From: a virus
Taxonomy: Duplodnaviria > Caudoviricetes
IMG/VR virus record: IMGVR_UViG_3300029288_000067
Span: 160,067 to 224,066 of that record
Strand: one strand, 5' to 3'
DNA length: 64,000 bases
In this document: in pieces, positions 7,571 through 52,582 of the stretch
Layout: each line of letters starts with the position of its first letter
How positions within the stretch are numbered: the stretch's first letter is position 1
Notes under the pieces: generated by a model
Seen by the model: the letters and a program-made list of their open reading frames with translations, nothing else
Told to the model about the DNA's origin: nothing
Databases searched by the model: none
Program-made: the position numbers and the translations under genes

Positions 7571-8059
7571 CTACTTTTTAATACTCCTGTTTTCTGAATA
7601 GAATTTGAATAGAACAAAGAACTTGAAGTAAATCAAATCTACCGCATTATCCCGGTACGTGTCAATATCTTTTGGTGTTTTGTTGGAAAAAAGAAAAGAG
7701 ATGTATTTCTTCGATTGCGTGTGAGCTTCAGATGTTTTGATGAATACAAAGAAATTCTCGATTTTGGGGAGTATAGCCTCTCGATATCTTTTCCAATCTT
7801 TGAACAAATTTCCAATTTGATTTTCCTCACTACTGTTCAAAAAGGATTTGGATATTGTACATCTATATCCTTTCGGAAATTTTTCCGTGGGAAGGGTCAA
7901 GAGATACTGATAAGCCTGTAAGGGGTCCGTGAATGTTTTACCGGCCCCAAGATAAATAACATCATTCTTTGGGGTAACCGGAACATCAATTTTTTCTTCC
8001 TCCGGAGGATCATTCACACCCAAATATGAAAAGGACTCCATAAAGAGATTTTTATTCAT
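7571..8059 (-). CDS. hypothetical protein
   Basis: 162-aa ORF overlapping the upstream stop. Confidence 0.65.
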   Translation of the reverse strand: MNKNLFMESFSYLGVNDPPEEEKIDVPVTPKNDVIYLGAGKTFTDPLQAYQYLLTLPTEKFPKGYRCTISKSFLNSSEENQIGNLFKDWKRYREAILPKIENFFVFIKTSEAHTQSKKYISFLFSNKTPKDIDTYRDNAVDLIYFKFFVLFKFYSENRSIKK

Positions 8060-8638: not shown

Positions 8639-9106
8639 TTATTTGATCCAGTTGAATGCTCTTGCACCAATAACAGGGGCAACAAATCCAAGAACAAAAT
8701 TCAAATTTCTCTGAAACCGGGATCTTCGAACAGTTGTGTTCGCCTGTTTTTGCATTGCAGAGTAATTTTCATGCCATTCGGAAATAATGCTCTTATAGGA
8801 GGTAATAGATTCCCGGTAAATAGCAATAGACTCTTGTTTCATTTTGTCCAAGTCTTTATATTTATCGATCAAAGCATCCTGTAATGCCTTCATTTGTCTA
8901 TAGTTCTCCAACAATTCCTTGTATTCTTTTACCAACTCCTGATTCTTCTCGGCAGATTCCATTTTCTCTTTCATCTTATTCAATTCGGGGAGAGAGAAAA
9001 ACAAACCCTCTTCCTTAGCAATAAAAGGCTTGCCCGGTTTTACCACCTCGGTTGCATAGATGGAAGAAGAAATAAAAATGAACAGCAAACACAATTTTTT
9101 AAACAT
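8639..9106 (-). CDS. secreted coiled-coil protein with C-terminal hydrophobic segment (spanin-like)
   Basis: Signal peptide, long heptad region, C-terminal FVLGFVAPVIGA. Confidence 0.6.
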   Translation of the reverse strand: MFKKLCLLFIFISSSIYATEVVKPGKPFIAKEEGLFFSLPELNKMKEKMESAEKNQELVKEYKELLENYRQMKALQDALIDKYKDLDKMKQESIAIYRESITSYKSIISEWHENYSAMQKQANTTVRRSRFQRNLNFVLGFVAPVIGARAFNWIK

Positions 9107-9112
9107 ATTTTC

Positions 9113-9478
9113 TCACTTTCCTACAATGGTATCCCAGTATTTTTTGGAGTCTTCTGCGGAGGTATCTGGAACAACCACAACAGGTTTATTCTCCACAGTA
9201 GACACTTGACCCTCTTTATCTTTGATGGTCTGATTTAAATCAGAAACTTTGCGAGAATCCTTCTCAATCTCTTTTTCAATTTCAGCCGGTTTACTCGTCT
9301 CCGTGGGGGCAGTCGAAACCCGACCGTCCGTAAATCCGGTTTGTACCAATAAGTCATCCGGTTTTTTCGGTACTTTGGTATTTTGAGATCTCCACCAAAA
9401 GTAGAATAACAAAACCAGAATAAAAGAGACTAAGAAGACTCCCACACCCACGTACAAATAAATAGTATTGATTGCCAT
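9113..9478 (-). CDS. N-terminally anchored membrane protein (possible i-spanin-like)
   Basis: N-terminal TM followed by a charged coiled region. Confidence 0.6.
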   Translation of the reverse strand: MAINTIYLYVGVGVFLVSFILVLLFYFWWRSQNTKVPKKPDDLLVQTGFTDGRVSTAPTETSKPAEIEKEIEKDSRKVSDLNQTIKDKEGQVSTVENKPVVVVPDTSAEDSKKYWDTIVGK

Positions 9479-9962
9479 AGTTTAGGTATTATACTCCATG
9501 TCCTAAAAGTTTTAAAGGTTTTTATTTCCTTGTATTTTCTCCCCTTTTTTCTTATTGGAATATGAGAGAGAATTGTACGGTTAGTTTTCTTTGATTTTTT
9601 CTAAACCCCCCCAAAAAAGGGTATTCCTTGCCCCCCCCTTTAATGTAAGAGGTTGATTCAAACTCTGTGGTATCTCATGAAATATCTCTTTCCTAGCAAA
9701 ATATATAAAAACCCAAAACAAATACAAAAACCTAGGAAAGAAGACAAACTCACCTCCGTACTCTATCATGAGTTTGAATCAAAGTCAACCCTAAAGATTT
9801 GCCTTTTTTAGTGCTAAACTGCACAGGTTTTGTGAGAAAAACGGAGAAGAATGTACAAAAACCTCGGCAAGAGCCCGACCCCAACCGGTTTTGTGGGGAC
9901 ATCTTCCAAGACAGAAATTTTCTCATTTTGCTACGGTTTCACTCTGAATGTTAAAAACTCTT

Positions 9963-10495: not shown

Positions 10496-12664
10496 ATGAA
10501 AAAAGATACAAAGGTTAAACAAGTGTCAAAAGCCGTTAAAATCAAGGACTCTTCCCCCACAAGAGGCTCCTATGACTCCGTAAAGGGATTACTTCCAAAA
10601 AAAATGGAAAAAACTGCATCTATTGATAATATGGTGAAAGAGGAGTTCTTTCCTTCACATTGGAAAGACAAAAAATCGGATTCAAAGTTTGCCGCAGTTG
10701 CTTTTAAAGACCCCCGGAGTAGTGCAGCATCTTCTGCCCATTTCGGCAGTATGGAAGATTTGTCTACTTTTATGGCGGGAAACGGCATTAATGTCCATCG
10801 GGACGATTTTGACACCCTAGACCTTTTTGCCCAACACATCATCTCCCTCATCAACACGGATGTGTATTCTATTGCAAACCTGACAAAACATGAAAGATTT
10901 ATTCTTTTGCGGTATTTTTATCGCAGTAATCCTATTTTGGGTCGGGTAATCGATCTTCATACTGAAATTCCCCTCTCCAAACTTCGTCTGCAACCCCCAC
11001 AAGATTGCCCAAAGATTGTGAAAGATTACATGACGATGTTTTTCGAGAAAATATTTAATAGAATTAATTTCACGGAAGTCTTGAAAGATGTTGTATTGTT
11101 CTATCAATTGCTGGGGGAAGGTTACGCAATGGTGGATGATTACTTTGCGGAACATCCCAGAAAATTACAATCTATTGAGGATTTATCCGGAAAGAGTTTT
11201 GATTACAAGGAAGAAGATCTTAAGTTCATCGAAAAAATTGAAAAAGAGTATGAAGCGGATCCAAAGAAAGTAACCGTTGCAGACCGACAAAAATACTTTG
11301 AAAAGAAATTTTTGGGCTTTTTTACAAAGAGCTATAATGGTCCTGATCGTCTTCGTGCTTTGAAATTTTACGATATCACAGAATACTTCACAAATGAGGA
11401 AATTGGTTTTGAGGCAATTCGGCATCGTATTTCGGATGGAGTCCAAACCATTCTTCAAGATCATAATGTAGCAAGAGATTCCCGAAATGATGATGATTAT
11501 TCTGCTTTGAAGGACATGGGATATTCCAAGGGATTCATTGAGCTTTTGAAACAAAACCGAGATTCCCGGGATATTGTTGTGGATAATGATATTTATTCCG
11601 GATTGCCCTTTTTGATTCTTTTTAAGAGATTTGAAACAACCTCTTTGGCATACCGGGTTTTAGATGCTTGTCTTGCTTGGGATGCTTCTCATAAGGCAAT
11701 GAAGGCTAAAATCAAAACAATTGGACGAGTTGGACGCATTGTTAAGGCCCCTGAGTTGGGTATTGATCAATTGAATGCTTTGGTTGCCGAAGTAAAACAA
11801 ATGATCGAAGACCCAACTTATGCTGTGGTTGTGAACTATGATCTGACGTGGGAAGAAACAAATGCTTTCTTGAAAGACGAGCTAAATCAGCTTATTGAAG
11901 CTCAAGATCGTTTGAAGCAATTGATTTCTACTGGTATGGGTATTCCTGAGTCTTTGTTGTCCGGTGAATCTCAATATACTGGGGACAATATCAAAGTAGA
12001 AATTTTGAATACCCAGTACTTTGCTTTCAAAGTTAAATTTCAAAATTTGCTGGAAGATTGTTTTATGAAACCTATGGCTTTGCGAAAAGGTTTCATTGGA
12101 TTGGATGATTGGGGTAATCTCCGACTTTTCTATCCTAAACTTACTTTCAGTCTTTTGAATCTTCGCTCCTCGGAATATTTCGAGATGTTGATGAATCTTT
12201 ACAACAAAGGCTCCCTCAATATCGATGTTATTTATGATTTATTGAATTTGGACGGAGACGGCATTATTCACGCTTTGAAAGAGGATTTGTGGTCCTTGAA
12301 ATCAGATAAGATGAATGTGTTGGTTGAAGATATGCTCCATGCTGCCGCTGAAAAAATGGTGCAAGACACCGATTATGCCGATAAAATCATCGAAGCTCTT
12401 GGATTGAGCAAGAAATCTTCCGTGCAACAAGCAGAAGATGAATTGAAATCCGGAGGTGGGGCAGCGGGTGGTGGATCTTCCGGGGGAGGTATGAGTATGC
12501 CTTCCGGTGGAGGAAGTATGGATATGGGAGATTTAGGGGATATGGGGGATGAAGGTGAGGCTCCTGCAGAAGGGGAGACCCCGGACTCTCCAGAACCTGA
12601 AGTGGGGGGAGGAATTCCTTCCGAACTTCCGAAAGAAAAAATTCCCGTTCCTCCGGGACAATAG
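10496..12664 (+). CDS. portal protein (putative)
   Basis: RYFYRSNPILGRVIDLHTEIPLSKL and GMGIPESLLSGE motifs typical of large-phage portals; Gly/acidic tail; first gene of the structural block. Confidence 0.75.
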   Translation: MKKDTKVKQVSKAVKIKDSSPTRGSYDSVKGLLPKKMEKTASIDNMVKEEFFPSHWKDKKSDSKFAAVAFKDPRSSAASSAHFGSMEDLSTFMAGNGINVHRDDFDTLDLFAQHIISLINTDVYSIANLTKHERFILLRYFYRSNPILGRVIDLHTEIPLSKLRLQPPQDCPKIVKDYMTMFFEKIFNRINFTEVLKDVVLFYQLLGEGYAMVDDYFAEHPRKLQSIEDLSGKSFDYKEEDLKFIEKIEKEYEADPKKVTVADRQKYFEKKFLGFFTKSYNGPDRLRALKFYDITEYFTNEEIGFEAIRHRISDGVQTILQDHNVARDSRNDDDYSALKDMGYSKGFIELLKQNRDSRDIVVDNDIYSGLPFLILFKRFETTSLAYRVLDACLAWDASHKAMKAKIKTIGRVGRIVKAPELGIDQLNALVAEVKQMIEDPTYAVVVNYDLTWEETNAFLKDELNQLIEAQDRLKQLISTGMGIPESLLSGESQYTGDNIKVEILNTQYFAFKVKFQNLLEDCFMKPMALRKGFIGLDDWGNLRLFYPKLTFSLLNLRSSEYFEMLMNLYNKGSLNIDVIYDLLNLDGDGIIHALKEDLWSLKSDKMNVLVEDMLHAAAEKMVQDTDYADKIIEALGLSKKSSVQQAEDELKSGGGAAGGGSSGGGMSMPSGGGSMDMGDLGDMGDEGEAPAEGETPDSPEPEVGGGIPSELPKEKIPVPPGQ

Positions 12665-46468: not shown

Positions 46469-48118
46469 ATGAACAAGAAGATTTTTGCAAACTCTACGGC
46501 TACCAAGAAAGTTCCTGTGGCTGATACCAAAAATTTGGCGGGTGGGAAAGCCTACAGCATGACCGATGAACATGCCCTTGCACAGATTGCTTCTACGGGC
46601 TGTTTCGGCAACACCTACTATGCCAACGCGGAAGATCAGCTTGAGAAGGTCCTTGAATTGGTAAAGAAGGTAGATCCGGTCTTTGTTGCAAAATTGGCTG
46701 TGTACTCTCGGAAAGAGGGCTACATGAAGGATATGCCTGCAGTTCTTGCCGCGTATCTTTCCACGGTGGATGCCGGATTGCTCCGTAAAATTTTCGCACA
46801 AGTTGTTGATAATGGGAAGATGTTGCGGAACTTCTTTCAGGCAATCAAATCGGGGAAGTTTGGTCGTACGTCTTTCGGACGGGCTCCAAGTTCCCTCATT
46901 CAGGGGTGGTTTGACTCCCACGATGAAGATTACATTTTCCGGAACAGTATTGGAAATGATCCTTCATTCTCGGATATCATCCACAACATCCACATCAAGC
47001 CAAAAAATAAGGCCCGGGAAGCCCTTTACGGTTACATCATGGGTAAGAAAGTAGTAACAAATGCGAAGGACATGGTTAAATCCAAGTCCGGCAAGTTTGT
47101 TACCGTACAAGAAAAAACCCTCCCGGGCATCGTTCGAGAGTATGAGGCATTCAAACGATTCAAGTTGGACGGGAAGAAGTGTGTTGGTCTCCCGGATGTT
47201 CCTTTCCAGATGTTGGATAGTCTCAACCTCTCCTCTGAAGATTGGAAGGAAGTTGCAAAAAATGCCCCGTGGCATATGTGCCGTATGAACTTGAACACCT
47301 TCATGCGTCATGGTGTATTTGCCGATTCTGAAATGGTGACTTTGATTGCAGATAAGTTGAAAAATGAGTATGCAATCAAGAAATCCAAGGTATTCCCATA
47401 CCAGTTGTTCTCTGCCTTCACGTATGCGGATGCGGCAATGCCACATGCTATTCGGGAAGCCTTGCAGGATGCTTTGGATGTTTCTCTCTACAATGTTCCG
47501 GAGATGGCGGGGAATATTGTGGTGTGTCCTGATGTTTCTGGAAGCATGAAATCTCCTATCACGCAGGCCCGGGGAGTTGCTTCTAAGATTCGCTGTGTGG
47601 ATGTTGCCGGTCTTGTGGCCTCTGCTATCCTCCGAAAGAATAAGAGTGCTCGGGTTATTCCTTTCGAGAATGATGTTGTGAATATTCCTCTGAATTCTCG
47701 GGACTCCGTAATGACCAATGCGGCAAAACTTGCTGCGGTTGGTGGTGGTGGAACTTGTTGCGCGGCCCCTCTTGTCAAGCTCATCAAAGAAGATGCAAAG
47801 GTTGATTTGATCGTGTATGTCTCCGATAATGAATCTTGGATCAACCCAGCAAGACACACGGGATATGGGTGGGGAAGAACATCGACAAGTGGAACCGCTG
47901 TAATGGATCTTTTCCAGAAGTTGAAGCACAAGAATCCGAATTTGAAGATGGTTTGTATTGATCTCACCCCGAATACAACCCTGCAGGCTCCTGACCGAAA
48001 GGACATCCTCAACATCGGGGGGTTCTCGGATACAGTGTTTGAATTGATGGATCTCTTCCATCAGGGTTTGTTGGATGCAAAGCATTGGGTGGATGTTGTT
48101 AAAAAAGTTCAACTTTAA
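46469..48118 (+). CDS. rsr: Ro60/TROVE-domain RNA-binding protein (Rsr-like)
   Basis: NLAGGKAY, TGCFGNTYY, GYMKDMP, MNLNTF.RHGVF, VFPYQL; vWA DVSGSM, GGGT, SDNESW, IGGFSD. Confidence 0.95.
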   Translation: MNKKIFANSTATKKVPVADTKNLAGGKAYSMTDEHALAQIASTGCFGNTYYANAEDQLEKVLELVKKVDPVFVAKLAVYSRKEGYMKDMPAVLAAYLSTVDAGLLRKIFAQVVDNGKMLRNFFQAIKSGKFGRTSFGRAPSSLIQGWFDSHDEDYIFRNSIGNDPSFSDIIHNIHIKPKNKAREALYGYIMGKKVVTNAKDMVKSKSGKFVTVQEKTLPGIVREYEAFKRFKLDGKKCVGLPDVPFQMLDSLNLSSEDWKEVAKNAPWHMCRMNLNTFMRHGVFADSEMVTLIADKLKNEYAIKKSKVFPYQLFSAFTYADAAMPHAIREALQDALDVSLYNVPEMAGNIVVCPDVSGSMKSPITQARGVASKIRCVDVAGLVASAILRKNKSARVIPFENDVVNIPLNSRDSVMTNAAKLAAVGGGGTCCAAPLVKLIKEDAKVDLIVYVSDNESWINPARHTGYGWGRTSTSGTAVMDLFQKLKHKNPNLKMVCIDLTPNTTLQAPDRKDILNIGGFSDTVFELMDLFHQGLLDAKHWVDVVKKVQL

Positions 48119-48121
48119 CGC

Positions 48122-48150
48122 TTGCATAAAACAAAATGTTGTGGTAAGGT
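48122..48150 (+). promoter_or_regulatory. sigma70-type promoter of the Y-RNA/tRNA operon
   Basis: TTGCAT-17 nt-TAAGGT with extended TGn; overlapped by a 14-bp inverted repeat (48138-48182). Confidence 0.65.
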
Positions 48151-48185
48151 AGAAACGTAAGGACAAAATACCTTACCACAACTAC

Positions 48186-48222
48186 AGCCCCCCTAAAGGG
48201 CTAGGTCTTTGAATAATTAAAT
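48186..48222 (+). promoter_or_regulatory. boxB/boxA-like antitermination site
   Basis: Hairpin AGCCC/GGGCT then GGTCTTTGAATAATTAAAT. Confidence 0.55.
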
Positions 48223-48229
48223 AGTTAAA

Positions 48230-48300
48230 AACTGGAACTACCGAGTGGTTTACATTTGTATCATCACAAAACCAAACAACTACTCAAAATTTGTCCAGTT
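48230..48300 (+). ncRNA. Y-RNA-like element 1 (minimal)
   Basis: AACTGGA/TCCAGTT outer stem, ACTAC loop, GAGTGGTT/AACTACTC inner stem, TACA. Confidence 0.75.
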
Positions 48301-48308
48301 CGATTTTA

Positions 48309-48455
48309 AGGTGGAAACTACGCAAGGGATTACATGGACATTAAATCCCCCGCTGTAAAAAGCATGTAGGTTCGAGTCCTACTCTCCCCACTCATGGGGA
48401 GATGGCGAAATTGGTAGACGCAGGAAAAAAATATCTCTTCATCTTTGATCCACCT
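48309..48455 (+). ncRNA. Y-RNA-like element 2 (permuted tRNA-Leu-like domain)
   Basis: AGGTGGA/TCCACCT stem; T-arm, then loop-closed acceptor TCTCCCCA-CTCA-TGGGGAGA, then D-arm. Confidence 0.85.
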
Positions 48456-48471
48456 GATTTTATAAGTTAGT

Positions 48472-48537
48472 GCTTGAAACTATCCGAGGGATTACATTTT
48501 TTGGTAAAATAACAATCTCTCACTATTTTGTTCAAGC
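48472..48537 (+). ncRNA. Y-RNA-like element 3 (minimal)
   Basis: GCTTGAA/TTCAAGC and GAGGGATT/AATCTCTC stems. Confidence 0.75.
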
Positions 48538-48540
48538 CAT

Positions 48541-48613
48541 AGGGTATTAGTTCAGCGGCTTAGAATCCTGGCTTGTCACGCCGGAGACACGGGTTCAAAT
48601 CCCGTATACCCTG
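48541..48613 (+). tRNA. tRNA-Asp(GTC)
   Basis: Cloverleaf, acceptor AGGGTAT/ATACCCT, loop TTGTCAC. Confidence 0.9.
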
Positions 48614-48614
48614 C

Positions 48615-48750
48615 TGTGAGGAAACTACCAAAAAGGGGTTACTTCAATGTTAATGACGTGATGGGGGTTCGAGTCCCCTCCTGGAGGTCTAACTTCTGGG
48701 TAGTTTAATGGTAAAACCCGAAAAATACCTCTTTATTTTTGTTCCTCATA
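48615..48750 (+). ncRNA. Y-RNA-like element 4 (permuted tRNA domain, GTT loop remnant)
   Basis: TGTGAGGAA/TTCCTCATA stem; T-arm before D-arm TAGTTTAATGGTAAAAC. Confidence 0.85.
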
Positions 48751-48753
48751 TAT

Positions 48754-48826
48754 GCCCTCATCGAATAATGGCTTAGTTCGCCAGCCTTTCAAGTTGGAAA
48801 TACCGGTTCAAATCCGGTTGGGGGTA
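48754..48826 (+). tRNA. tRNA-Glu(TTC)
   Basis: Cloverleaf, loop CTTTCAA. Confidence 0.9.
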
Positions 48827-48829
48827 CTG

Positions 48830-48975
48830 GATCGAGATACTGTCACAAGGTTTACAACGCGGATCTTTGGCCATGGGTTCGAGTCCCATTCCTCCCCCTG
48901 TAGGAGTTCTATGGGGAGGATAGCTCAGTTGGTAGAGCAAAAGAATAAAATAACTTTGTATTTTTGATCTCGATC
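48830..48975 (+). ncRNA. Y-RNA-like element 5 (permuted tRNA domain)
   Basis: GATCGAGA/TCTCGATC stem; T-arm, TCCTCCCC/GGGGAGGA, TAGCTCAGTTGGTAGAGC. Confidence 0.85.
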
Positions 48976-48983
48976 ATCTTTTT

Positions 48984-49094
48984 CTGTAAGAGACTCACAA
49001 AGGGATTACATTTTAAGTTCAATTCTTAATTCCCCCACTCACGGGGGAATAGCCTAAATGGTAAAGGCAAATCTCTTATTACTCGCTCTTACAG
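48984..49094 (+). ncRNA. Y-RNA-like element 6 (compact YrlA-like)
   Basis: CTGTAAGAG/CTCTTACAG stem; T-arm, TTCCCCC-ACTCAC-GGGGGAA, D-arm. Confidence 0.85.
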
Positions 49095-49098
49095 TCTT

Positions 49099-49181
49099 GC
49101 GGGAGTGGTGGAACGGCAGACACGCAAGTTCGAGAGACTTGTGGGCGAAAGCTCGTGAAGGTTCAACTCCTTTCTTCCGCA
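49099..49181 (+). tRNA. tRNA-Leu(GAG)
   Basis: Class II cloverleaf, loop TCGAGAG (C33 atypical), A73. Confidence 0.8.
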
Positions 49182-49222
49182 CTGTATGTGGACAAAGATC
49201 CGGACAAAATGACCGAGTAGTT

Positions 49223-49352
49223 TCAAGGCACTACAAAAGGGTTTACAGGATATGTCGCCTAAATGGTAAGGCAGCTTCTATGGAAATAGGAGAAGATTTT
49301 CGGTTCAACTCCGAATGTACCCCCAGACCTAACTCTTTTCATTTGGCCTTGA
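49223..49352 (+). ncRNA. Y-RNA-like element 7 (non-permuted tRNA-like cargo ending CCA)
   Basis: TCAAGGC/GCCTTGA stem enclosing D-arm, hairpin, T-arm and CCA at 49248-49325. Confidence 0.8.
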
Positions 49353-49355
49353 TTT

Positions 49356-49437
49356 GCCAGCATGGCGAAATTTGGTAGACGCAGCAGACTTAGGATCTGC
49401 CGGTTAATCCGTGGGGGTTCGATTCCCTCTGTTGGCA
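49356..49437 (+). tRNA. tRNA-Leu(TAG)
   Basis: Class II cloverleaf, loop CTTAGGA. Confidence 0.92.
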
Positions 49438-49441
49438 TTGT

Positions 49442-49594
49442 ATACGAGAAAACTACACAAGGGATTACATTACGCATAGGCTTGTTAAGCCTTGGCAACT
49501 TATGTGGGTTCGAGTCCCACCTGTGTTGAGAGTTATTAACACTGTGGCGGAATTGGTCTTGTTGCCATAATCTCTTAACCTTTGTTTCTCGTAT
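49442..49594 (+). ncRNA. Y-RNA-like element 8 (tRNA permuted in the D-loop)
   Basis: ATACGAGAAA/TTTCTCGTAT stem; AGGC-TTGTTAA-GCCT arm, T-arm, acceptor, TGGCGGAATTGGT. Confidence 0.8.
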
Positions 49595-49597
49595 CTT

Positions 49598-49669
49598 GGG
49601 GCTTTAGTTTAGGTGGGAAAACGTGGGCTTTGCAAGCCTAAATCCTCGGATCATACCCGGGAAGCTCCA
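49598..49669 (+). tRNA. tRNA-Ala(TGC)
   Basis: G3:U70 pair, loop TTTGCAA, atypical T-loop ATCATAC. Confidence 0.8.
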
Positions 49670-49706
49670 TTCTTATCTTTCTGCATATCAAATAAAGGAA
49701 ATATAC

Positions 49707-50399
49707 ATGCATTTTTACCACTTCGGGTATTATGATCATGACTCCCACTCTGACCGGGCTTTCATGCATGAGAAAAAATATACCAAGGCACAATTAGAGA
49801 GCTTTTTTACGAAAGCAACAATTTCTGTTTTCAATAAAAAGTGTGTTGAGGAATATTCGGACTTTATTAAGGAAACTATTCCGGATGCAGAAACCTTTCT
49901 TTCTTTTTGGGAAGAGCTTAAAAGTGCTCATGAGAAAGACACAGAAGAATATGTGTCAGATCTGTTTCATTTCATCCAAAAAAACCGGCACACTTTTAAA
50001 TACCGGGATAAAGATGCCCCGGATACGCCAAATGACGCATTTGACAAATATTTCCAGATCGAGCCCTATGACAAGGCTTACTATATGGAAAAAACCAAGC
50101 ACCTTGTATATATGTCAGAGCACGTCTCGGACATGATCTGTTTTATTTATGAAGTTCTGGAAAAAGAGTATGGGTTTATTCCCGTGAAGTTTGAGACGGA
50201 TTTTTATGTAAACAATATCAATTTTTACAGTTGCGGGTGGGATACACAGCCCTTTGATAAAAAATTTGCATCTCGGGTTCGGAGAGAAACAAATAAGCAA
50301 TTGAAAGATTTATCGGAGCATTTCAAAAAGATCTTGCCAAAAGAAACAAAGGGTGTTAAGATTTATCTTTGTCACAAGTATCCAAAAACAGCCTCTTAA
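49707..50399 (+). CDS. hypothetical protein inserted in the RNA operon
   Basis: Start moved to MHFYHF after an AAGGA RBS; the upstream ORF part overlaps tRNA-Ala. Confidence 0.7.
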   Translation: MHFYHFGYYDHDSHSDRAFMHEKKYTKAQLESFFTKATISVFNKKCVEEYSDFIKETIPDAETFLSFWEELKSAHEKDTEEYVSDLFHFIQKNRHTFKYRDKDAPDTPNDAFDKYFQIEPYDKAYYMEKTKHLVYMSEHVSDMICFIYEVLEKEYGFIPVKFETDFYVNNINFYSCGWDTQPFDKKFASRVRRETNKQLKDLSEHFKKILPKETKGVKIYLCHKYPKTAS

Positions 50400-50462
50400 C
50401 TCAGTTGGTAGAGTGTCTGCTTTACACGCAGATTGTCGTCGGTTCAATCCCGGCAGAGGCTA
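50390..50462 (+). tRNA. tRNA-Val(TAC)
   Basis: Cloverleaf, loop TTTACAC; overlaps the upstream stop codon. Confidence 0.9.
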
Positions 50463-50463
50463 C

Positions 50464-50584
50464 TGCAAGGAACTACGAAGGGGATTACAAGGATAAAATC
50501 TCTACCTCCGTGTAGTGGTGAGAGTGTTCGAAGCACTCAAAACAGTCGAAAGGCTGTTCAATCTCTTTCATTTTTGTCCTTGTA
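50464..50584 (+). ncRNA. Y-RNA-like element 9
   Basis: TGCAAGGA/TCCTTGTA stem, GAAGGGGATT/AATCTCTTTC; T-arm-like GAGTG-TTCGAAG-CACTC and a GAAA hairpin. Confidence 0.8.
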
Positions 50585-50587
50585 TTT

Positions 50588-50671
50588 GCCGGGATGGCGG
50601 AACTGGTATACGCGCAAGTCTCAAACACTTGTGGGAGCAATCTCTTGGGGGTTCGAGTCCCCCTCCCGGCA
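50588..50671 (+). tRNA. tRNA-Leu(CAA)
   Basis: Class II cloverleaf, loop CTCAAAC. Confidence 0.92.
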
Positions 50672-50698
50672 CTGTTTACATCTACAGGAGATACATAA

Positions 50699-51829: not shown

Positions 51830-51886
51830 TCTTTTAATTTGTATGTGAATACTCCTTCTGTAGGAAACACAAAAGGAGTACAAGTA

Positions 51887-52582
51887 ATGCAAAGTGATCT
51901 TTTGGAACTGTCTTTTGAAGAGTGTCTTGTGTGTTCTGATTTGCACTTCCCGGGGCACTCTGTTAAATGGGTTCGAGAGTTGATCAAGTATGGACGTATG
52001 CACAACGTCAAGAAAATAATCCACTCGGGAGATTTGTTCAACTTTGATGCTCTTTCCCGGTTTGAATTGAAGGATAAAAAATTTCCCCTCGACAAAGAAT
52101 TGGAAATTGGGAAAAAGGTTCTCTTGGAGTTGAGGCAGCATTTTAACGGTTTTTACACTGTGCGGGGAAACCACGATAAGAGACTGCCTCTTGCAATGAA
52201 TGATTCTATTGATTTTGCAACAGCCTTGAATCTATTGCTCGATAACAAGGTGGTTGCAACCAATAGAGACCACCTTTTCTTATATTCCGGGGGAGAGAAA
52301 TTCCGTATCTGTCACCCAGATAAATACTCCACGGTAAAGGGTAAGGTTGCGGGTGGTTTAGCACACGATCTACAAGAACATGTTATTATGGGCCACCCAC
52401 ATTATTTTTCAATGGCTTACAACAAAACTGGGAGATATATGGCAATTGAAATGCCTTGTATGTGTGATAAAATGGCATTTCAGTATAAGAATGAAGCAAC
52501 TACTGGTTGTCCCGAGTGGAATAATGGATTTTTGCACATCAAAAAAGGGAAAGTAAGAGTAATTACCGAATTGACTTTTTAA
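51887..52582 (+). CDS. calcineurin-like metallophosphoesterase
   Basis: SDLH, GDLFN, GNHD, GHPH motifs. Confidence 0.9.
   Translation: MQSDLLELSFEECLVCSDLHFPGHSVKWVRELIKYGRMHNVKKIIHSGDLFNFDALSRFELKDKKFPLDKELEIGKKVLLELRQHFNGFYTVRGNHDKRLPLAMNDSIDFATALNLLLDNKVVATNRDHLFLYSGGEKFRICHPDKYSTVKGKVAGGLAHDLQEHVIMGHPHYFSMAYNKTGRYMAIEMPCMCDKMAFQYKNEATTGCPEWNNGFLHIKKGKVRVITELTF

What the first reader, a model, noticed from the sequence alone, without database searches (positions are those of the whole stretch)
46469..50671. Phage Ro60/TROVE gene followed by an array of nine modular Y-RNA-like RNAs interleaved with tRNAs
Seen: nine elements (starts 48230, 48309, 48472, 48615, 48830, 48984, 49223, 49442, 50464) share one scaffold: outer stem, 5' ACT(A)C loop, purine-rich inner stem ending in TACA (consensus AAGGGATTACA), cargo, AATCTCTT-like complement, U-rich loop ending in G, outer stem. 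Every outer stem differs in sequence yet stays paired (AACTGGA/TCCAGTT, AGGTGGA/TCCACCT, GCTTGAA/TTCAAGC, GATCGAGA/TCTCGATC, CTGTAAGAG/CTCTTACAG, TCAAGGC/GCCTTGA), which is covariation. Established: bacterial Ro60 (Rsr) binds Y RNAs encoded next to it, Y RNAs are a Ro-binding stem plus an effector module, YrlA RNAs are tRNA mimics, and characterised loci have only one or a few Y RNAs. Inference: this is a phage-expanded family with a Ro-binding motif unlike the GNCGAA-type YrlA motif, giving one Ro ring many interchangeable RNA adaptors. Possible roles are decoys for host anticodon nucleases, or tethers for PNPase or tRNA-handling enzymes.
Basis: partly seen in the sequence, partly recalled or inferred. 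Interest (0 to 1): 0.95.

Follow-up and report, generated by a model that had tools for sequence, protein, structure and literature searches.

The report
Phage Ro60 with nine Y RNAs
A 224-kb phage encodes the ring-shaped RNA-binding protein Ro60. Right behind that gene sit nine small partner RNAs ("Y RNAs") woven between seven tRNA genes. All nine carry an altered version of the protein-docking motif that is almost invariant in bacteria, so this may be a private protein-RNA pairing.

Summary
All nine elements exist at the stated coordinates, all on the + strand. Each has an element-specific outer stem, a 5' loop ACU(A/G/C)(C/U), a G-rich inner stem with a G.U pair followed by UACA, a cargo, and a 3' loop ending in G (UUG in seven, UG in E7, CG in E6, UUGA in E2). 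The upstream ORF is a true Ro60 (TROVE plus Ro60-vWA).

The scaffold is not a new RNA class. It is the Ro-binding module of YrlA/YrlB Y RNAs, with the same architecture, the same YUAY motif and a similar 3' loop. Five cargos have the YrlA tRNA-like layout (T arm, closed acceptor-like stem, D arm). Rfam YrlA matches them only below threshold.

Arrays are not special to phages. Bacterial relatives carry 2-7 such RNAs next to rsr, and related phages carry 4-8. Nine is the largest array seen here.

The unusual part is the 5' loop. It starts AUGC in 145 of 147 bacterial elements, is relaxed to AUGY in the sister phage, and reads ACUAC in 9 of 9 elements here. This phage's Ro60 alone has lost conserved basic residues (K134T, K141S/R142S) in a segment aligned to experimentally mapped RNA contacts.

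This scan has reported Ro60-like genes with partner-RNA arrays in other phages. Verdict: a new variant of a known kind. No expression or binding data exist.

The parts
46469..48118 (+). Ro60 (Rsr) gene, 549 aa, TROVE ring plus Ro60-type vWA domain with MIDAS DVSGSM
   Evidence: Pfam vWA_Ro60 1.3e-15 and TROVE 6.3e-9. PHROG 850 'RNA-binding protein' 1.7e-38. About 50% identity to thousands of bacterial Ro60 proteins. PDB sequence hits to Rsr 2NVO, Xenopus Ro 1YVP and phage phiLo Ro60 9KOP.
48122..48150 (+). Promoter-like TTGCAT-N17-TAAGGT directly after the Ro60 stop codon. It overlaps a 13-bp hairpin at 48138-48182.
   Evidence: Read from the sequence. The sister phage L049 has TTGCAA-N17-TAAGAT at the same place. 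Not scored by the consensus scan. This is an inference.
48230..48300 (+). E1: short Y RNA (YrlB-like). Handle plus a small hairpin cargo.
   Evidence: z -3.3. Covariance model R1 scores it 27.7 bits, E 7e-4.
48309..48455 (+). E2: Y RNA with V hairpin, T arm, 8-bp closed acceptor-like stem and a Leu-type (class II-like) D arm
   Evidence: Compared with its L049 orthologue, 10 of 25 pairs are kept through double changes. Rfam YrlA 16.1 bits. The inner stem is absent from the MFE fold but supported comparatively.
48472..48537 (+). E3: short Y RNA (YrlB-like)
   Evidence: z -3.3. It is a training member of model R1.
48541..48614 (+). tRNA-Asp(GUC)
   Evidence: ARAGORN. Rfam tRNA 62 bits.
48615..48750 (+). 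E4: Y RNA with V hairpin, T arm, closed acceptor-like stem and D arm
   Evidence: Rfam YrlA 26.8 bits, E 0.0065.
48754..48827 (+). tRNA-Glu(UUC)
48830..48975 (+). E5: the most canonical YrlA of the array. Its D arm and T arm are nearly identical to the YrlA consensus.
   Evidence: Rfam YrlA 37.1 bits, E 4e-7, over model positions 1-114. Fold z -3.2.
48984..49094 (+). E6: compact Y RNA. T arm, closed acceptor-like stem and D arm sit directly on the inner stem, giving a cloverleaf-like fold.
   Evidence: MFE equals centroid, z -5.6. R1 19.7 bits.
49099..49182 (+). tRNA-Leu(GAG)
49223..49352 (+). E7: Y RNA whose cargo is an unpermuted tRNA-like domain. The order is D arm, 7-bp stem capped by GGAA (a GNRA tetraloop), then T arm.
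   Evidence: ARAGORN calls it 'tRNA-???' with a 4-nt anticodon. Rfam tRNA 30.8 bits. Folds.
49355..49438 (+). tRNA-Leu(UAG)
49442..49594 (+). E8: Y RNA with extra hairpin, 7-bp enclosing stem, T arm, long closed stem and a Leu-type D region. It is the best-conserved RNA of the array.
   Evidence: Its cargo is 91% identical to the L049 orthologue, against 70-84% for the tRNAs and 69% for the Ro60 gene. Two compensatory pairs. Rfam YrlA 20.3 bits.
49597..49670 (+). tRNA-Ala(UGC)
49707..50399 (+). ORF of 230 aa that interrupts the RNA array. No family assigned.
   Evidence: No Pfam or PHROG hit.
50334..50362 (+). Promoter-like TTGCCA-N17-TAAGAT with an extended TG, upstream of tRNA-Val
   Evidence: Consensus scan. 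It has the same TTGCNA-N17-TAAGNT form as the site at 48122. This is an inference.
50390..50463 (+). tRNA-Val(UAC)
50464..50584 (+). E9: Y RNA with three hairpins, one of them T-arm-like (5-bp stem, loop UUCGAAG)
   Evidence: z -3.9. R1 29.5 bits, E 2.5e-4.
50588..50672 (+). tRNA-Leu(CAA)

Best explanation
The stretch is an RNA operon placed directly behind a phage Ro60 gene, probably as two transcription units. It encodes nine Y RNAs of the bacterial YrlA/YrlB class and seven ordinary tRNAs.

Shown by sequence analysis: each Y RNA has a common 'handle' homologous to the Ro60-binding module of YrlA. The handle consists of a terminal helix, a 5' internal loop, a G-rich helix with a conserved G.U pair, UACA (the YUAY motif), and a U-rich 3' loop. 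That loop ends in UUG in seven of the nine; E7 ends in UG, E6 in CG and E2 in UUGA. Each RNA also has a different cargo. Five cargos have the YrlA-type tRNA mimic (T arm, loop-closed acceptor-like stem, D arm). One is an unpermuted tRNA-like domain with a GNRA cap. One has three hairpins. Two are plain hairpins.

Inferred: because the Y RNAs abut the tRNAs with only 0-4 nt between them, RNase P cleavage at tRNA 5' ends and tRNA 3'-end cleavage would release them as discrete RNAs. The handle docks them on the phage Ro60. The cargos connect the ring to tRNA-recognising or RNA-decay enzymes, such as PNPase in the Deinococcus and phage phiLo particles. The whole would be part of the phage's investment in tRNA supply and repair, which includes its own tRNAs, a CCA-adding enzyme, a kinase-domain (AAA_33) ORF and an Rnl1-type ligase.

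Inferred from co-variation: the near-invariant AUGC loop core has been replaced by ACUAC in all nine RNAs. At the same time this Ro60 alone lost conserved basic residues in the segment aligned to mapped RNA contacts. The pair therefore probably has a shifted, private recognition specificity.
For: Ro60 identity.

Common handle, full pairing and element-specific stems.

Homology to YrlA:
- Rfam YrlA hits E5 at 37.1 bits (E 4e-7, full model), E4 at 26.8, E8 at 20.3 and E2 at 16.1.
- In relatives the same architecture carries canonical GA|AUGC. There the Rfam YrlA match spans the whole element: L059 63.7, L008 57.1, L058 56.8 and 50.8, L057 44.9, L056 30.3 bits; L053 at 73.1 passes the gathering score.
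- UACA corresponds to the conserved YUAY of YrlA, and the optional hairpin before the T arm to its 'V' stem-loop (PMC4201824).

Conservation: the sister phage L049 (Ro60 62% identical) has a syntenic array of 8 elements. Compensatory changes are seen in handle and cargo helices. The E8 cargo is 91% identical.

A covariance model built from 4 short elements finds other elements across genomes: L050 31.4 bits, E9 29.5, E1 27.7, L008 26.5.

Strand and locus specificity: in 46 bacterial Ro60 loci there are 0-5 elements on the Ro60 strand and none on the opposite strand.

Loop motif: AUGC in 145 of 147 bacterial elements, with 2 hits on the control strand. L049 has AUGU 5 and AUGC 3. The window has ACUNY in 9 of 9 and no AUGC-type element.

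Protein side: in the motif NFVQ..RSG.VGRKSLG..PKR the window reads NFFQAIKSGKFGRTSFGRAPSS. K134 is kept in 105 of 109 homologues, and T occurs only in the window and L049. Position 141 is basic in 115 of 116 homologues and positions 141-142 are both basic in 111 of 116; SS occurs only here. A profile alignment places phiLo Ro60 R137/K141/K142 on positions 137/141/142. Those residues contact the RNA backbone, and K142S weakens binding 4.5-fold (PMC12135203).

Genome context: a CCA-adding enzyme, an Rnl1-type ligase and an AAA_33 kinase-domain ORF about 2 kb from the ligase.
Against: There is no transcript, processing or binding evidence of any kind. The host is unknown and the genome is a metagenomic assembly.

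None of the nine elements reaches the Rfam YrlA gathering score (best 37 against 69 bits). The defining GNCGAAN0-1G motif is not present as such.

The ACUAC variant is known from this one genome only. No closer Ro60 relative than 62% identity exists among 5.8 billion proteins. The protein-RNA co-variation therefore rests on one lineage, with two steps at most.

The mapping of phiLo contact residues relies on a remote profile alignment (about 17-20% identity). Loss of basic residues could equally mean weakened binding.

E2's inner stem is not in its minimum-free-energy fold. The function of the cargos is unknown even for well-studied YrlA.
Confidence: 0.72

Rival explanations
1. The RNAs act without Ro60. 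They are tRNA-shaped decoys or sponges for host tRNA-cleaving toxins or tRNA-modifying enzymes, and the conserved handle is only a nuclease-resistant clamp.
For: Six of the nine cargos are tRNA-like. The phage clearly invests in tRNA supply and repair. This Ro60 lacks basic residues that are conserved elsewhere.
Against: E1 and E3 have no tRNA-like part, yet they keep the full handle. The handle is homologous to the Ro-binding module of YrlA and is found only next to Ro60 genes and on their strand. Most cargos have no anticodon loop. E4's GUU-like loop is not conserved in its L049 orthologue. A mere clamp would not need an invariant loop, a G.U pair and YUAY.
Confidence: 0.1
2. The handle is recognised by a different phage protein, because this Ro60 has lost its Y-RNA surface. 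A candidate is the unassigned 230-aa ORF inside the array. Under this reading ACUAC is that protein's motif.
For: Unique loss of K134, K141 and R142 in Ro60. An ORF without any family sits inside the array.
Against: The rest of Ro60 is well conserved, at about 50% identity to bacterial proteins, with the MIDAS motif and 100+ invariant positions intact. The gene-array synteny is kept in L049. I did not establish an orthologue of the 230-aa ORF in L049; the tRNA-Ala to tRNA-Val interval there holds only smaller ORFs, and none was compared. The handle keeps every other YrlA feature.
Confidence: 0.07
3. The elements are structured spacers that only guide processing of the tRNA operon, for example as RNase III or RNase E entry sites. 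They would have no life of their own.
For: They are flush with tRNA genes, with 0-4 nt spacers, and they have terminal helices.
Against: E1, E2 and E3 follow one another with no tRNA between them, and so do E5 and E6. The same RNAs occur in bacterial rsr-rtcB operons that have no tRNA genes (L058). The E8 cargo is more conserved than the tRNAs. Spacers would not need T and D arms.
Confidence: 0.05
4. They are circularly permuted tRNA genes that yield decoding tRNAs after excision of the handle and ligation, as in the red alga Cyanidioschyzon.
For: The 3' half of the tRNA-like module comes before the 5' half in E2, E4, E5, E6 and E8. The phage encodes an RNA ligase.
Against: E5 and E6 have no anticodon loop. 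ARAGORN finds no tRNA in any re-circularised cargo except a junction artefact in E8. No bulge-helix-bulge motif or splicing endonuclease was looked for. The handle is conserved in elements that have no tRNA part. This layout is exactly that of YrlA, which is not a decoding tRNA (PMC4201824).
Confidence: 0.02

Closest known systems
YrlA / YrlB Y RNAs of Salmonella Typhimurium, Mycobacterium smegmatis and 22 phages (Chen et al. 2014, PMC4201824; Rfam RF02553)
   Same: They are encoded next to Ro60 on the same strand. The terminal helix is formed by the 5' and 3' ends. They share the internal loop plus G-rich helix, the YUAY motif and the 3' loop that mostly ends UUG. The tRNA-like module has an optional V hairpin, T arm, loop-closed acceptor-like stem and D arm. 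E5's D arm is almost identical to the consensus. Short partners without the tRNA module also occur (YrlB).
   Different: The loop core is ACUAC instead of the near-invariant AUGC, so GNCGAAN0-1G is not met. Scores are below the Rfam threshold. There are nine copies, against the two RNAs each shown in Salmonella and M. smegmatis and the four small RNAs at the Deinococcus locus. [quoted passage not shown] The RNAs are interleaved with real tRNAs. One cargo (E7) has the opposite topology.
Deinococcus radiodurans Rsr with Yrn1/Yrn2, and the RYPER particle (Ro60-Y RNA-PNPase)
   Same: A Ro60 ring is bound to a modular RNA whose second module tethers an effector. Yrn1's T and D arms are in tRNA order, as in E7 (PMC4201824).
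   Different: Yrn1 is evolutionarily distant in sequence. No PNPase link has been shown for this phage.
Thermus phage phiLo Ro60 with Yrl1/Yrl2 (PMC12135203)
   Same: A phage Ro60 has Y-like RNAs encoded beside it. Binding depends on the CGAA loop and on basic residues R137, K141 and K142.
   Different: phiLo has two RNAs located upstream of the gene, with the canonical CGAA motif. The phage studied here has nine downstream, an altered motif, and S141/S142 at the aligned positions.
Uncharacterised rsr-[Y RNA array]-rtcB-rtcA operons of Acidobacteriota and others (L058, L059 and 80 further loci fetched here)
   Same: They have the same handle architecture, the same mix of short and tRNA-like members, and tandem arrays of up to 6-7.
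   Different: Their loop is the canonical AUGC. No tRNA genes are interleaved. They are under RtcR control and sit next to RtcB/RtcA.
Permuted tRNA genes of Cyanidioschyzon merolae (recalled from memory, not tested)
   Same: The 3' half of a tRNA-like sequence precedes the 5' half.
   Different: Those genes yield functional tRNAs through circular intermediates. Here most elements have no anticodon loop and the closed acceptor stem is retained.

Membership tests
YrlA/YrlB Y RNAs (Chen et al. 2014; Rfam RF02553) | Encoded within 4 kb of a Ro60 gene, on the same strand | tested here: met
   The elements lie 112-2466 nt downstream of the Ro60 stop codon, all on +.
YrlA/YrlB Y RNAs (Chen et al. 2014; Rfam RF02553) | 5' and 3' ends pair in a terminal helix, followed by an internal loop and a second helix (stem-bulge-stem) | tested here: met
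   9 of 9 elements are fully paired, with covariation among paralogues and orthologues.
YrlA/YrlB Y RNAs (Chen et al. 2014; Rfam RF02553) | GNCGAAN0-1G motif near the 5' end (the presumed Ro60 contact) | tested here: not met
   The window has (G)GA|ACUAC. None of the nine has AUGC or CGAAUG. Relatives L056, L057, L008, L058 and L059 do have it.
YrlA/YrlB Y RNAs (Chen et al. 2014; Rfam RF02553) | Conserved YUAY after the second helix | tested here: met
   UUAC, or UUAC followed by A, in 9 of 9 (consensus GGGAUUACA).
YrlA/YrlB Y RNAs (Chen et al. 2014; Rfam RF02553) | tRNA-like domain made of T arm, loop-closed acceptor-like stem and D arm (YrlA only) | tested here: met
   Present in E2, E4, E5, E6 and, with alternative pairings, E8. 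Absent in E1 and E3 (YrlB-like). E7 and E9 differ.
YrlA/YrlB Y RNAs (Chen et al. 2014; Rfam RF02553) | Score at or above the Rfam gathering threshold (69 bits) | tested here: not met
   The best is E5 at 37.1 bits. Canonical-motif elements of relatives also mostly fail (30-64 bits), so the model is narrow.
YrlA/YrlB Y RNAs (Chen et al. 2014; Rfam RF02553) | Bound by Ro60 in vivo; carries tRNA-type modifications; cleavable by RNase P | not testable with these tools
   Needs experiments.
Ro60 / Rsr protein | TROVE HEAT-repeat ring plus Ro60-type vWA domain with a MIDAS motif | tested here: met
   Pfam PF05731 and PF25045 both score above their cut-offs. DVSGSM lies at residues 355-360. Full-length alignment to 22 homologues shows 50-64% identity.
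Ro60 / Rsr protein | Conserved basic RNA-binding patch (RSG.VGRKSLG..PKR) | tested here: inconclusive
   The segment is present, but it has unique substitutions R127K, K134T, K141S and R142S. Their effect on binding is unknown.
Decoding tRNA (for the cargos) | Open acceptor end and a 7-nt anticodon loop on a 5-bp stem | tested here: not met
   The acceptor stems are closed by loops. ARAGORN makes no call on re-circularised cargos, apart from a junction artefact. E7 has a GNRA tetraloop.

The most novel reading that the evidence does not exclude
The phage has rewired the Ro60-Y RNA recognition code. The loop core that is AUGC in 145 of 147 bacterial Y RNAs became ACUAC in all nine phage RNAs, and the phage Ro60 changed the matching basic patch (K134T, K141S, R142S, R127K and three changes to Phe). 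The sister phage shows an intermediate state (AUGY with K134T only). The result would be an orthogonal ribonucleoprotein. The host's Rsr could not capture the phage's adaptors, and the phage Ro60 would ignore host Y RNAs. That would give the phage a private set of nine interchangeable tRNA-shaped adaptors during infection.
Probability: 0.3. Interest if true: 0.75.

Novelty: new variant of a known kind. Interest (0 to 1): 0.58.

Why it matters
Y RNAs are the obligatory but poorly understood partners of Ro60, a protein conserved from bacteria to humans and a major lupus and Sjogren autoantigen. This locus matters for three reasons.

- It is the largest Y RNA set I could find: nine RNAs on one handle with six kinds of cargo.
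- Comparison with relatives shows that multi-copy Y RNA arrays are common in bacteria and phages. I found this stated in none of the few papers I could read.
- It looks like a natural experiment in Ro60-RNA specificity. An otherwise invariant RNA motif and an otherwise invariant protein patch changed together. That makes the recognition code directly testable by swapping motifs and residues.

The locus also ties phage Ro60 particles to the tRNA supply-and-repair arsenal that large phages are thought to use against tRNA-targeting defences.

Tried and rejected
- An exact-pattern scan of IMG/VR for ACTACNNARGGGATTACA returned 40 stretches. None had the complementary strand or an outer stem, so all are chance matches.
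- Protein-anchored scans of IMG/VR and JGI metagenomes gave only 1 and 3 loci. Contigs carrying P0004 (56% identical Ro60) and P0012 had no retrievable DNA.
- Covariance model R1 detects short elements only. Elements with a long cargo exceed what the model can span, even with the filters off. Covariation was therefore counted with my own script, not with R-scape.
- MAFFT misaligned the 3' halves of seven short elements (A1). I used a four-sequence alignment (A2) instead.
- ARAGORN on every circular permutation of each cargo gave no tRNA call, except 'tRNA-Val' in E8 and its L049 orthologue 49h, and a 'tRNA-Gly' call in the relative L057. The E8/49h anticodon is an artefact of the join; I did not examine the L057 call.
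- My first loose descriptor gave many chance hits genome-wide. I tightened it by requiring the UG/UUG end of the 3' loop and used the opposite strand as control.
- I tried to map vertebrate Y-RNA-binding residues (K170, R174, H187, recalled from memory) onto this Ro60. The window shows no private change at the positions I matched to them by eye. The one review I could read (PMC11277228) assigns H187S differently from my memory, so I dropped this line.
- Two Wolin-lab reviews and the supplementary tables of Chen et al. 2014 are not held. I therefore could not check the largest number of YrlA RNAs previously reported for one locus.
- One Rfam call was wasted on a stretch cut too short.
- No RtcB was found in the phage genome.

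Full report
WHAT IS THERE

The window is the last 64 kb of a 224,066-bp IMG/VR virus record that CheckV estimates to be 90% complete. ORF 46469-48118 (+, 549 aa) is a genuine Ro60:
- Pfam vWA_Ro60 (1.3e-15) and TROVE (6.3e-9) both score above their cut-offs.
- PHROG 850 'RNA-binding protein' matches at 1.7e-38.
- It is about 50% identical to thousands of bacterial Ro60 proteins.
- Its sequence matches the solved Ro60 proteins of Deinococcus, Xenopus, human and Thermus phage phiLo.

Behind the gene lie sixteen RNA genes in 2.4 kb, all on the + strand and interrupted only by a 230-aa ORF with no family. Seven are ordinary tRNAs: Asp, Glu, Leu-GAG, Leu-UAG, Ala, Val and Leu-CAA.

Every element has the same parts in the same order:
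- an outer helix of 7-10 bp;
- a 5' loop beginning ACU(A/G/C)(C/U);
- an inner helix of 7-10 bp (consensus AAGGGAUU : AAUCUCUU) with a central G.U pair;
- UACA;
- a cargo of 20-102 nt, counted from the UACA;
- a U-rich 3' loop ending in G. It ends in UUG in seven elements, UG in E7, CG in E6 and UUGA in E2.

Both helices are 100% paired in all nine. The outer helices are all different. An outer 5' strand pairs 7/7 with its own partner but only 3.7/7 on average with another element's partner, and 1 of 72 wrong combinations is fully paired.

The motif counts exceed chance. The 9-mer RGGDTTACW occurs 15 times in the window against 5.9 +/- 2.4 in shuffles, and eight of the 15 lie in the array. A longer pattern hits the whole genome 7 times forward and 0 times reverse, against 0/0 for the reversed-pattern control. 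All nine minimum-free-energy folds contain the outer helix and eight contain the inner one. Z-scores run from -1.7 to -5.6.

WHAT THE HANDLE IS

The handle is the Ro60-binding module of bacterial YrlA/YrlB Y RNAs, not a new scaffold. Three lines of evidence show this.

First, Rfam's YrlA model matches E5 over its full length (37.1 bits, E 4e-7). E5's T arm, closed stem and D arm align to the model's, and its D arm is nearly identical to the consensus. E4, E8 and E2 match more weakly.

Second, relatives form a chain from this phage to canonical YrlA. I fetched loci whose Ro60 is 41-62% identical to this one, from five phage-like contigs (L049, L050, L056, L057, L008) and two bacterial MAGs (L058, L059). 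A simple descriptor finds elements there with the same architecture but with GA|AUGC in the 5' loop. That is the GNCGAAN0-1G motif of Chen et al. 2014. In those loci the Rfam YrlA match spans exactly the element the descriptor delimits: L059 63.7 bits, L008 57.1, L058 56.8 and 50.8, L057 44.9, L056 30.3. One element in L053 passes the gathering score at 73.1 bits.

Third, the UACA after the inner helix is the conserved YUAY of YrlA. The optional hairpin before the T arm in E2, E4 and E8 is YrlA's poorly conserved 'V' stem-loop (PMC4201824). Other first-reader notes read it as an anticodon-arm remnant.

A covariance model built from only four short elements also finds other elements across genomes: L050 31.4 bits, E9 29.5, E1 27.7, L008 26.5.

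THE CARGOS

- E5, E6, E4 and E2 have the YrlA layout: T arm, loop-closed acceptor-like stem, D arm. E8 has it too, but with alternative pairings.
- E7 is different. Its order is D arm, a 7-bp stem capped by the GNRA tetraloop GGAA, then T arm. The handle therefore replaces the acceptor stem, as in Deinococcus Yrn1 (PMC4201824).
- E9 has three hairpins, one of them T-arm-like.
- E1 and E3 carry only a small hairpin, like YrlB.

ARAGORN finds no tRNA in any re-circularised cargo of this window, apart from a join artefact in E8. These are mimics, not decoding tRNAs.

CONSERVATION

The sister phage contig L049 (Ro60 62% identical, from a different sample) has a syntenic array of eight elements interleaved with tRNA-Tyr, Asp, Glu, Leu and Ala. 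Orthologous pairs keep their helices through compensatory changes: 10 of 25 pairs in E2, 3 in E4 and 2 in E8. The E8 cargo is 91% identical between the two phages. That is more than the shared tRNAs (70-84%) or the Ro60 gene (69% at the nucleotide level), so it is under the strongest constraint in the locus.

ARRAYS ARE NOT A PHAGE SPECIALITY

- In L058 (an Acidobacteria MAG) six or seven such RNAs fill the gap between rsr and rtcB in an rtcR-rsr-rtcB-rtcA operon. L059 has at least five.
- In 46 bacterial species-representative loci with full flanks, a strict descriptor that demands perfect helices finds 0-5 elements per locus on the Ro60 strand. The most common counts are 2 and 3. It finds none on the opposite strand in any locus.
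- Phage L008 has at least five elements scattered through a 35-tRNA cluster, and L056 has at least four between four tRNAs.

Nine is therefore the largest array I saw, but it is the end of a continuum. The characterised loci have fewer: Salmonella and M. smegmatis each have at least two, and Deinococcus has four small RNAs upstream of Rsr (PMC4201824). I found no paper describing large arrays, but two key reviews and the supplementary tables of Chen et al. were not available. This scan has already reported Ro60-like genes with arrays of 3-6 partner RNAs in the tRNA clusters of other phages.

WHAT IS UNUSUAL: THE LOOP

A descriptor that ignores the 5' loop sequence finds 147 elements on the Ro60 strand of 82 bacterial loci, and 2 on the control strand. 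The loop starts AUGC in 145 of them, AUGU in one and AUAC in one. In L049 it is AUGU in five elements and AUGC in three. In the window it is ACUAC-type in nine of nine, and no AUGC-type element exists anywhere in the window.

The protein changes in step with the RNA. In the most conserved N-terminal block (consensus NFVQ..RSG.VGRKSLG..PKR, residues 121-142) this Ro60 reads NFFQAIKSGKFGRTSFGRAPSS.
- K134 is present in 105 of 109 close homologues. Thr occurs only here and in L049.
- Position 141 is basic in 115 of 116 homologues, and 141-142 are both basic in 111. SS occurs only here.
- A profile alignment places phiLo Ro60 residues R137, K141 and K142 on positions 137, 141 and 142. In phiLo these residues contact the Y-like RNA backbone. 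K142S weakens binding 4.5-fold, and point mutations in the CGAA loop weaken it 3-4-fold (PMC12135203).

No closer relative of this Ro60 than L049's exists among 5.8 billion proteins. The series therefore rests on one lineage: AUGC with K134 and KR, then AUGY with T134 and RK, then ACUAC with T134 and SS. It is suggestive, not proof.

HOW IT PROBABLY WORKS

Shown: the gene order, the handle, the cargo layouts, the covariation and the homology to YrlA.

Inferred:
(i) Two promoter-like sites of the form TTGCNA-N17-TAAGNT lie at 48122-48150 and 50334-50362. The first is conserved in L049, and they probably drive the array.
(ii) Spacers between Y RNAs and tRNAs are only 0-4 nt. Cleavage at the tRNA 5' and 3' ends would therefore release each Y RNA with its terminal helix intact.
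(iii) The handle docks on the phage Ro60.
(iv) The cargos link the ring to tRNA-recognising or RNA-decay enzymes, by analogy with the Ro60-Y RNA-PNPase particles of Deinococcus and phage phiLo.
(v) The system belongs to the phage's tRNA maintenance kit. Besides 20 tRNA genes in this window, the genome encodes a CCA-adding enzyme, an Rnl1-type RNA ligase and, about 2 kb from the ligase, an AAA_33 kinase-domain ORF that could supply the end-healing kinase. It has no RtcB.
(vi) The changed loop and the changed protein patch give the phage a private pairing.

I put about 0.85 on 'YrlA/YrlB-class Y RNAs', about 0.7 on 'bound by this Ro60', about 0.3 on 'orthogonal specificity', and about 0.3 on any particular downstream role.

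VERDICT

The handle is a variant of the known one, and arrays are widespread. What remains noteworthy is the record size of the array, the diversity of its cargos, and a concerted motif switch that is mirrored in the protein.

Noticed in passing
L049:3852-4182: The sister phage's orthologue of E5 (the canonical YrlA) carries an insertion of about 215 nt in the loop that closes its acceptor-like stem. The insert folds into a branched structure (whole element -102.5 kcal/mol, z -2.0). It has no Rfam match at E <= 0.05.
   Followed up: partly
L058:6650-7600 (Acidobacteria MAG GCA_016213785.1): A bacterial rtcR-rsr-rtcB-rtcA operon has six or seven tandem Y RNAs between rsr and rtcB: three short and three or four with tRNA-like cargo. 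L059 (Kapaibacterium MAG) has at least five, two of them 3 kb downstream. Multi-copy Y RNA arrays seem common, and I found them described in none of the papers I could read.
   Followed up: partly
L008:6957-13109 (IMG/VR 3300027917_000034): A high-GC phage has its Ro60 gene embedded in a cluster of 35 tRNA genes. At least five canonical (AUGC) Y RNAs lie between the tRNAs: 7660-7770, 8876-8945, 9324-9454, 9729-9881 and 11745-11877.
   Followed up: partly
window 48138-48182: A 13-bp perfect hairpin lies directly after the Ro60 stop codon and overlaps the -10 element of the promoter-like site. No U tract follows it. It could be a processing or stability signal for the Ro60 mRNA, or part of the leader of the RNA operon.
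   Followed up: no
window 49707-50399: A 230-aa ORF with no Pfam or PHROG family sits inside the RNA array, between tRNA-Ala and tRNA-Val. A promoter-like site for the next RNA unit lies in its 3' end.
   Followed up: partly
window 51839-52582 and L049:7422-8129: A calcineurin-type metallophosphoesterase gene is kept about 1-3 kb downstream of the array in both phages. Enzymes of this fold serve as RNA end-healing phosphatases in bacterial Pnkp, so it may belong to the RNA-repair theme. That link is recalled from memory and untested.
   Followed up: no
G000:C1:73279-76089 and 90281-90658 (outside the window): The phage encodes an AAA_33 kinase-domain ORF (322 aa) about 2 kb from an Rnl1-type RNA ligase (367-aa ORF), a pairing reminiscent of the T4 Pnk-Rnl1 tRNA-repair pair. 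It also encodes a PolyA_pol/CCA-adding family enzyme (472-aa ORF).
   Followed up: partly
window 48614-48617, 48827-48830, 49182-49185, 49438-49441, 50463-50466: None of these tRNA genes encodes CCA. The discriminator base is followed by CUG or UUG, which often runs straight into the next Y RNA's outer helix. The Y RNA 3' loops mostly end in UUG as well. I did not examine whether one nuclease reads both.
   Followed up: no
window 49183-49222: This 40-nt spacer between tRNA-Leu(GAG) and E7 is the only sizeable unassigned stretch inside the first RNA unit.
   Followed up: no
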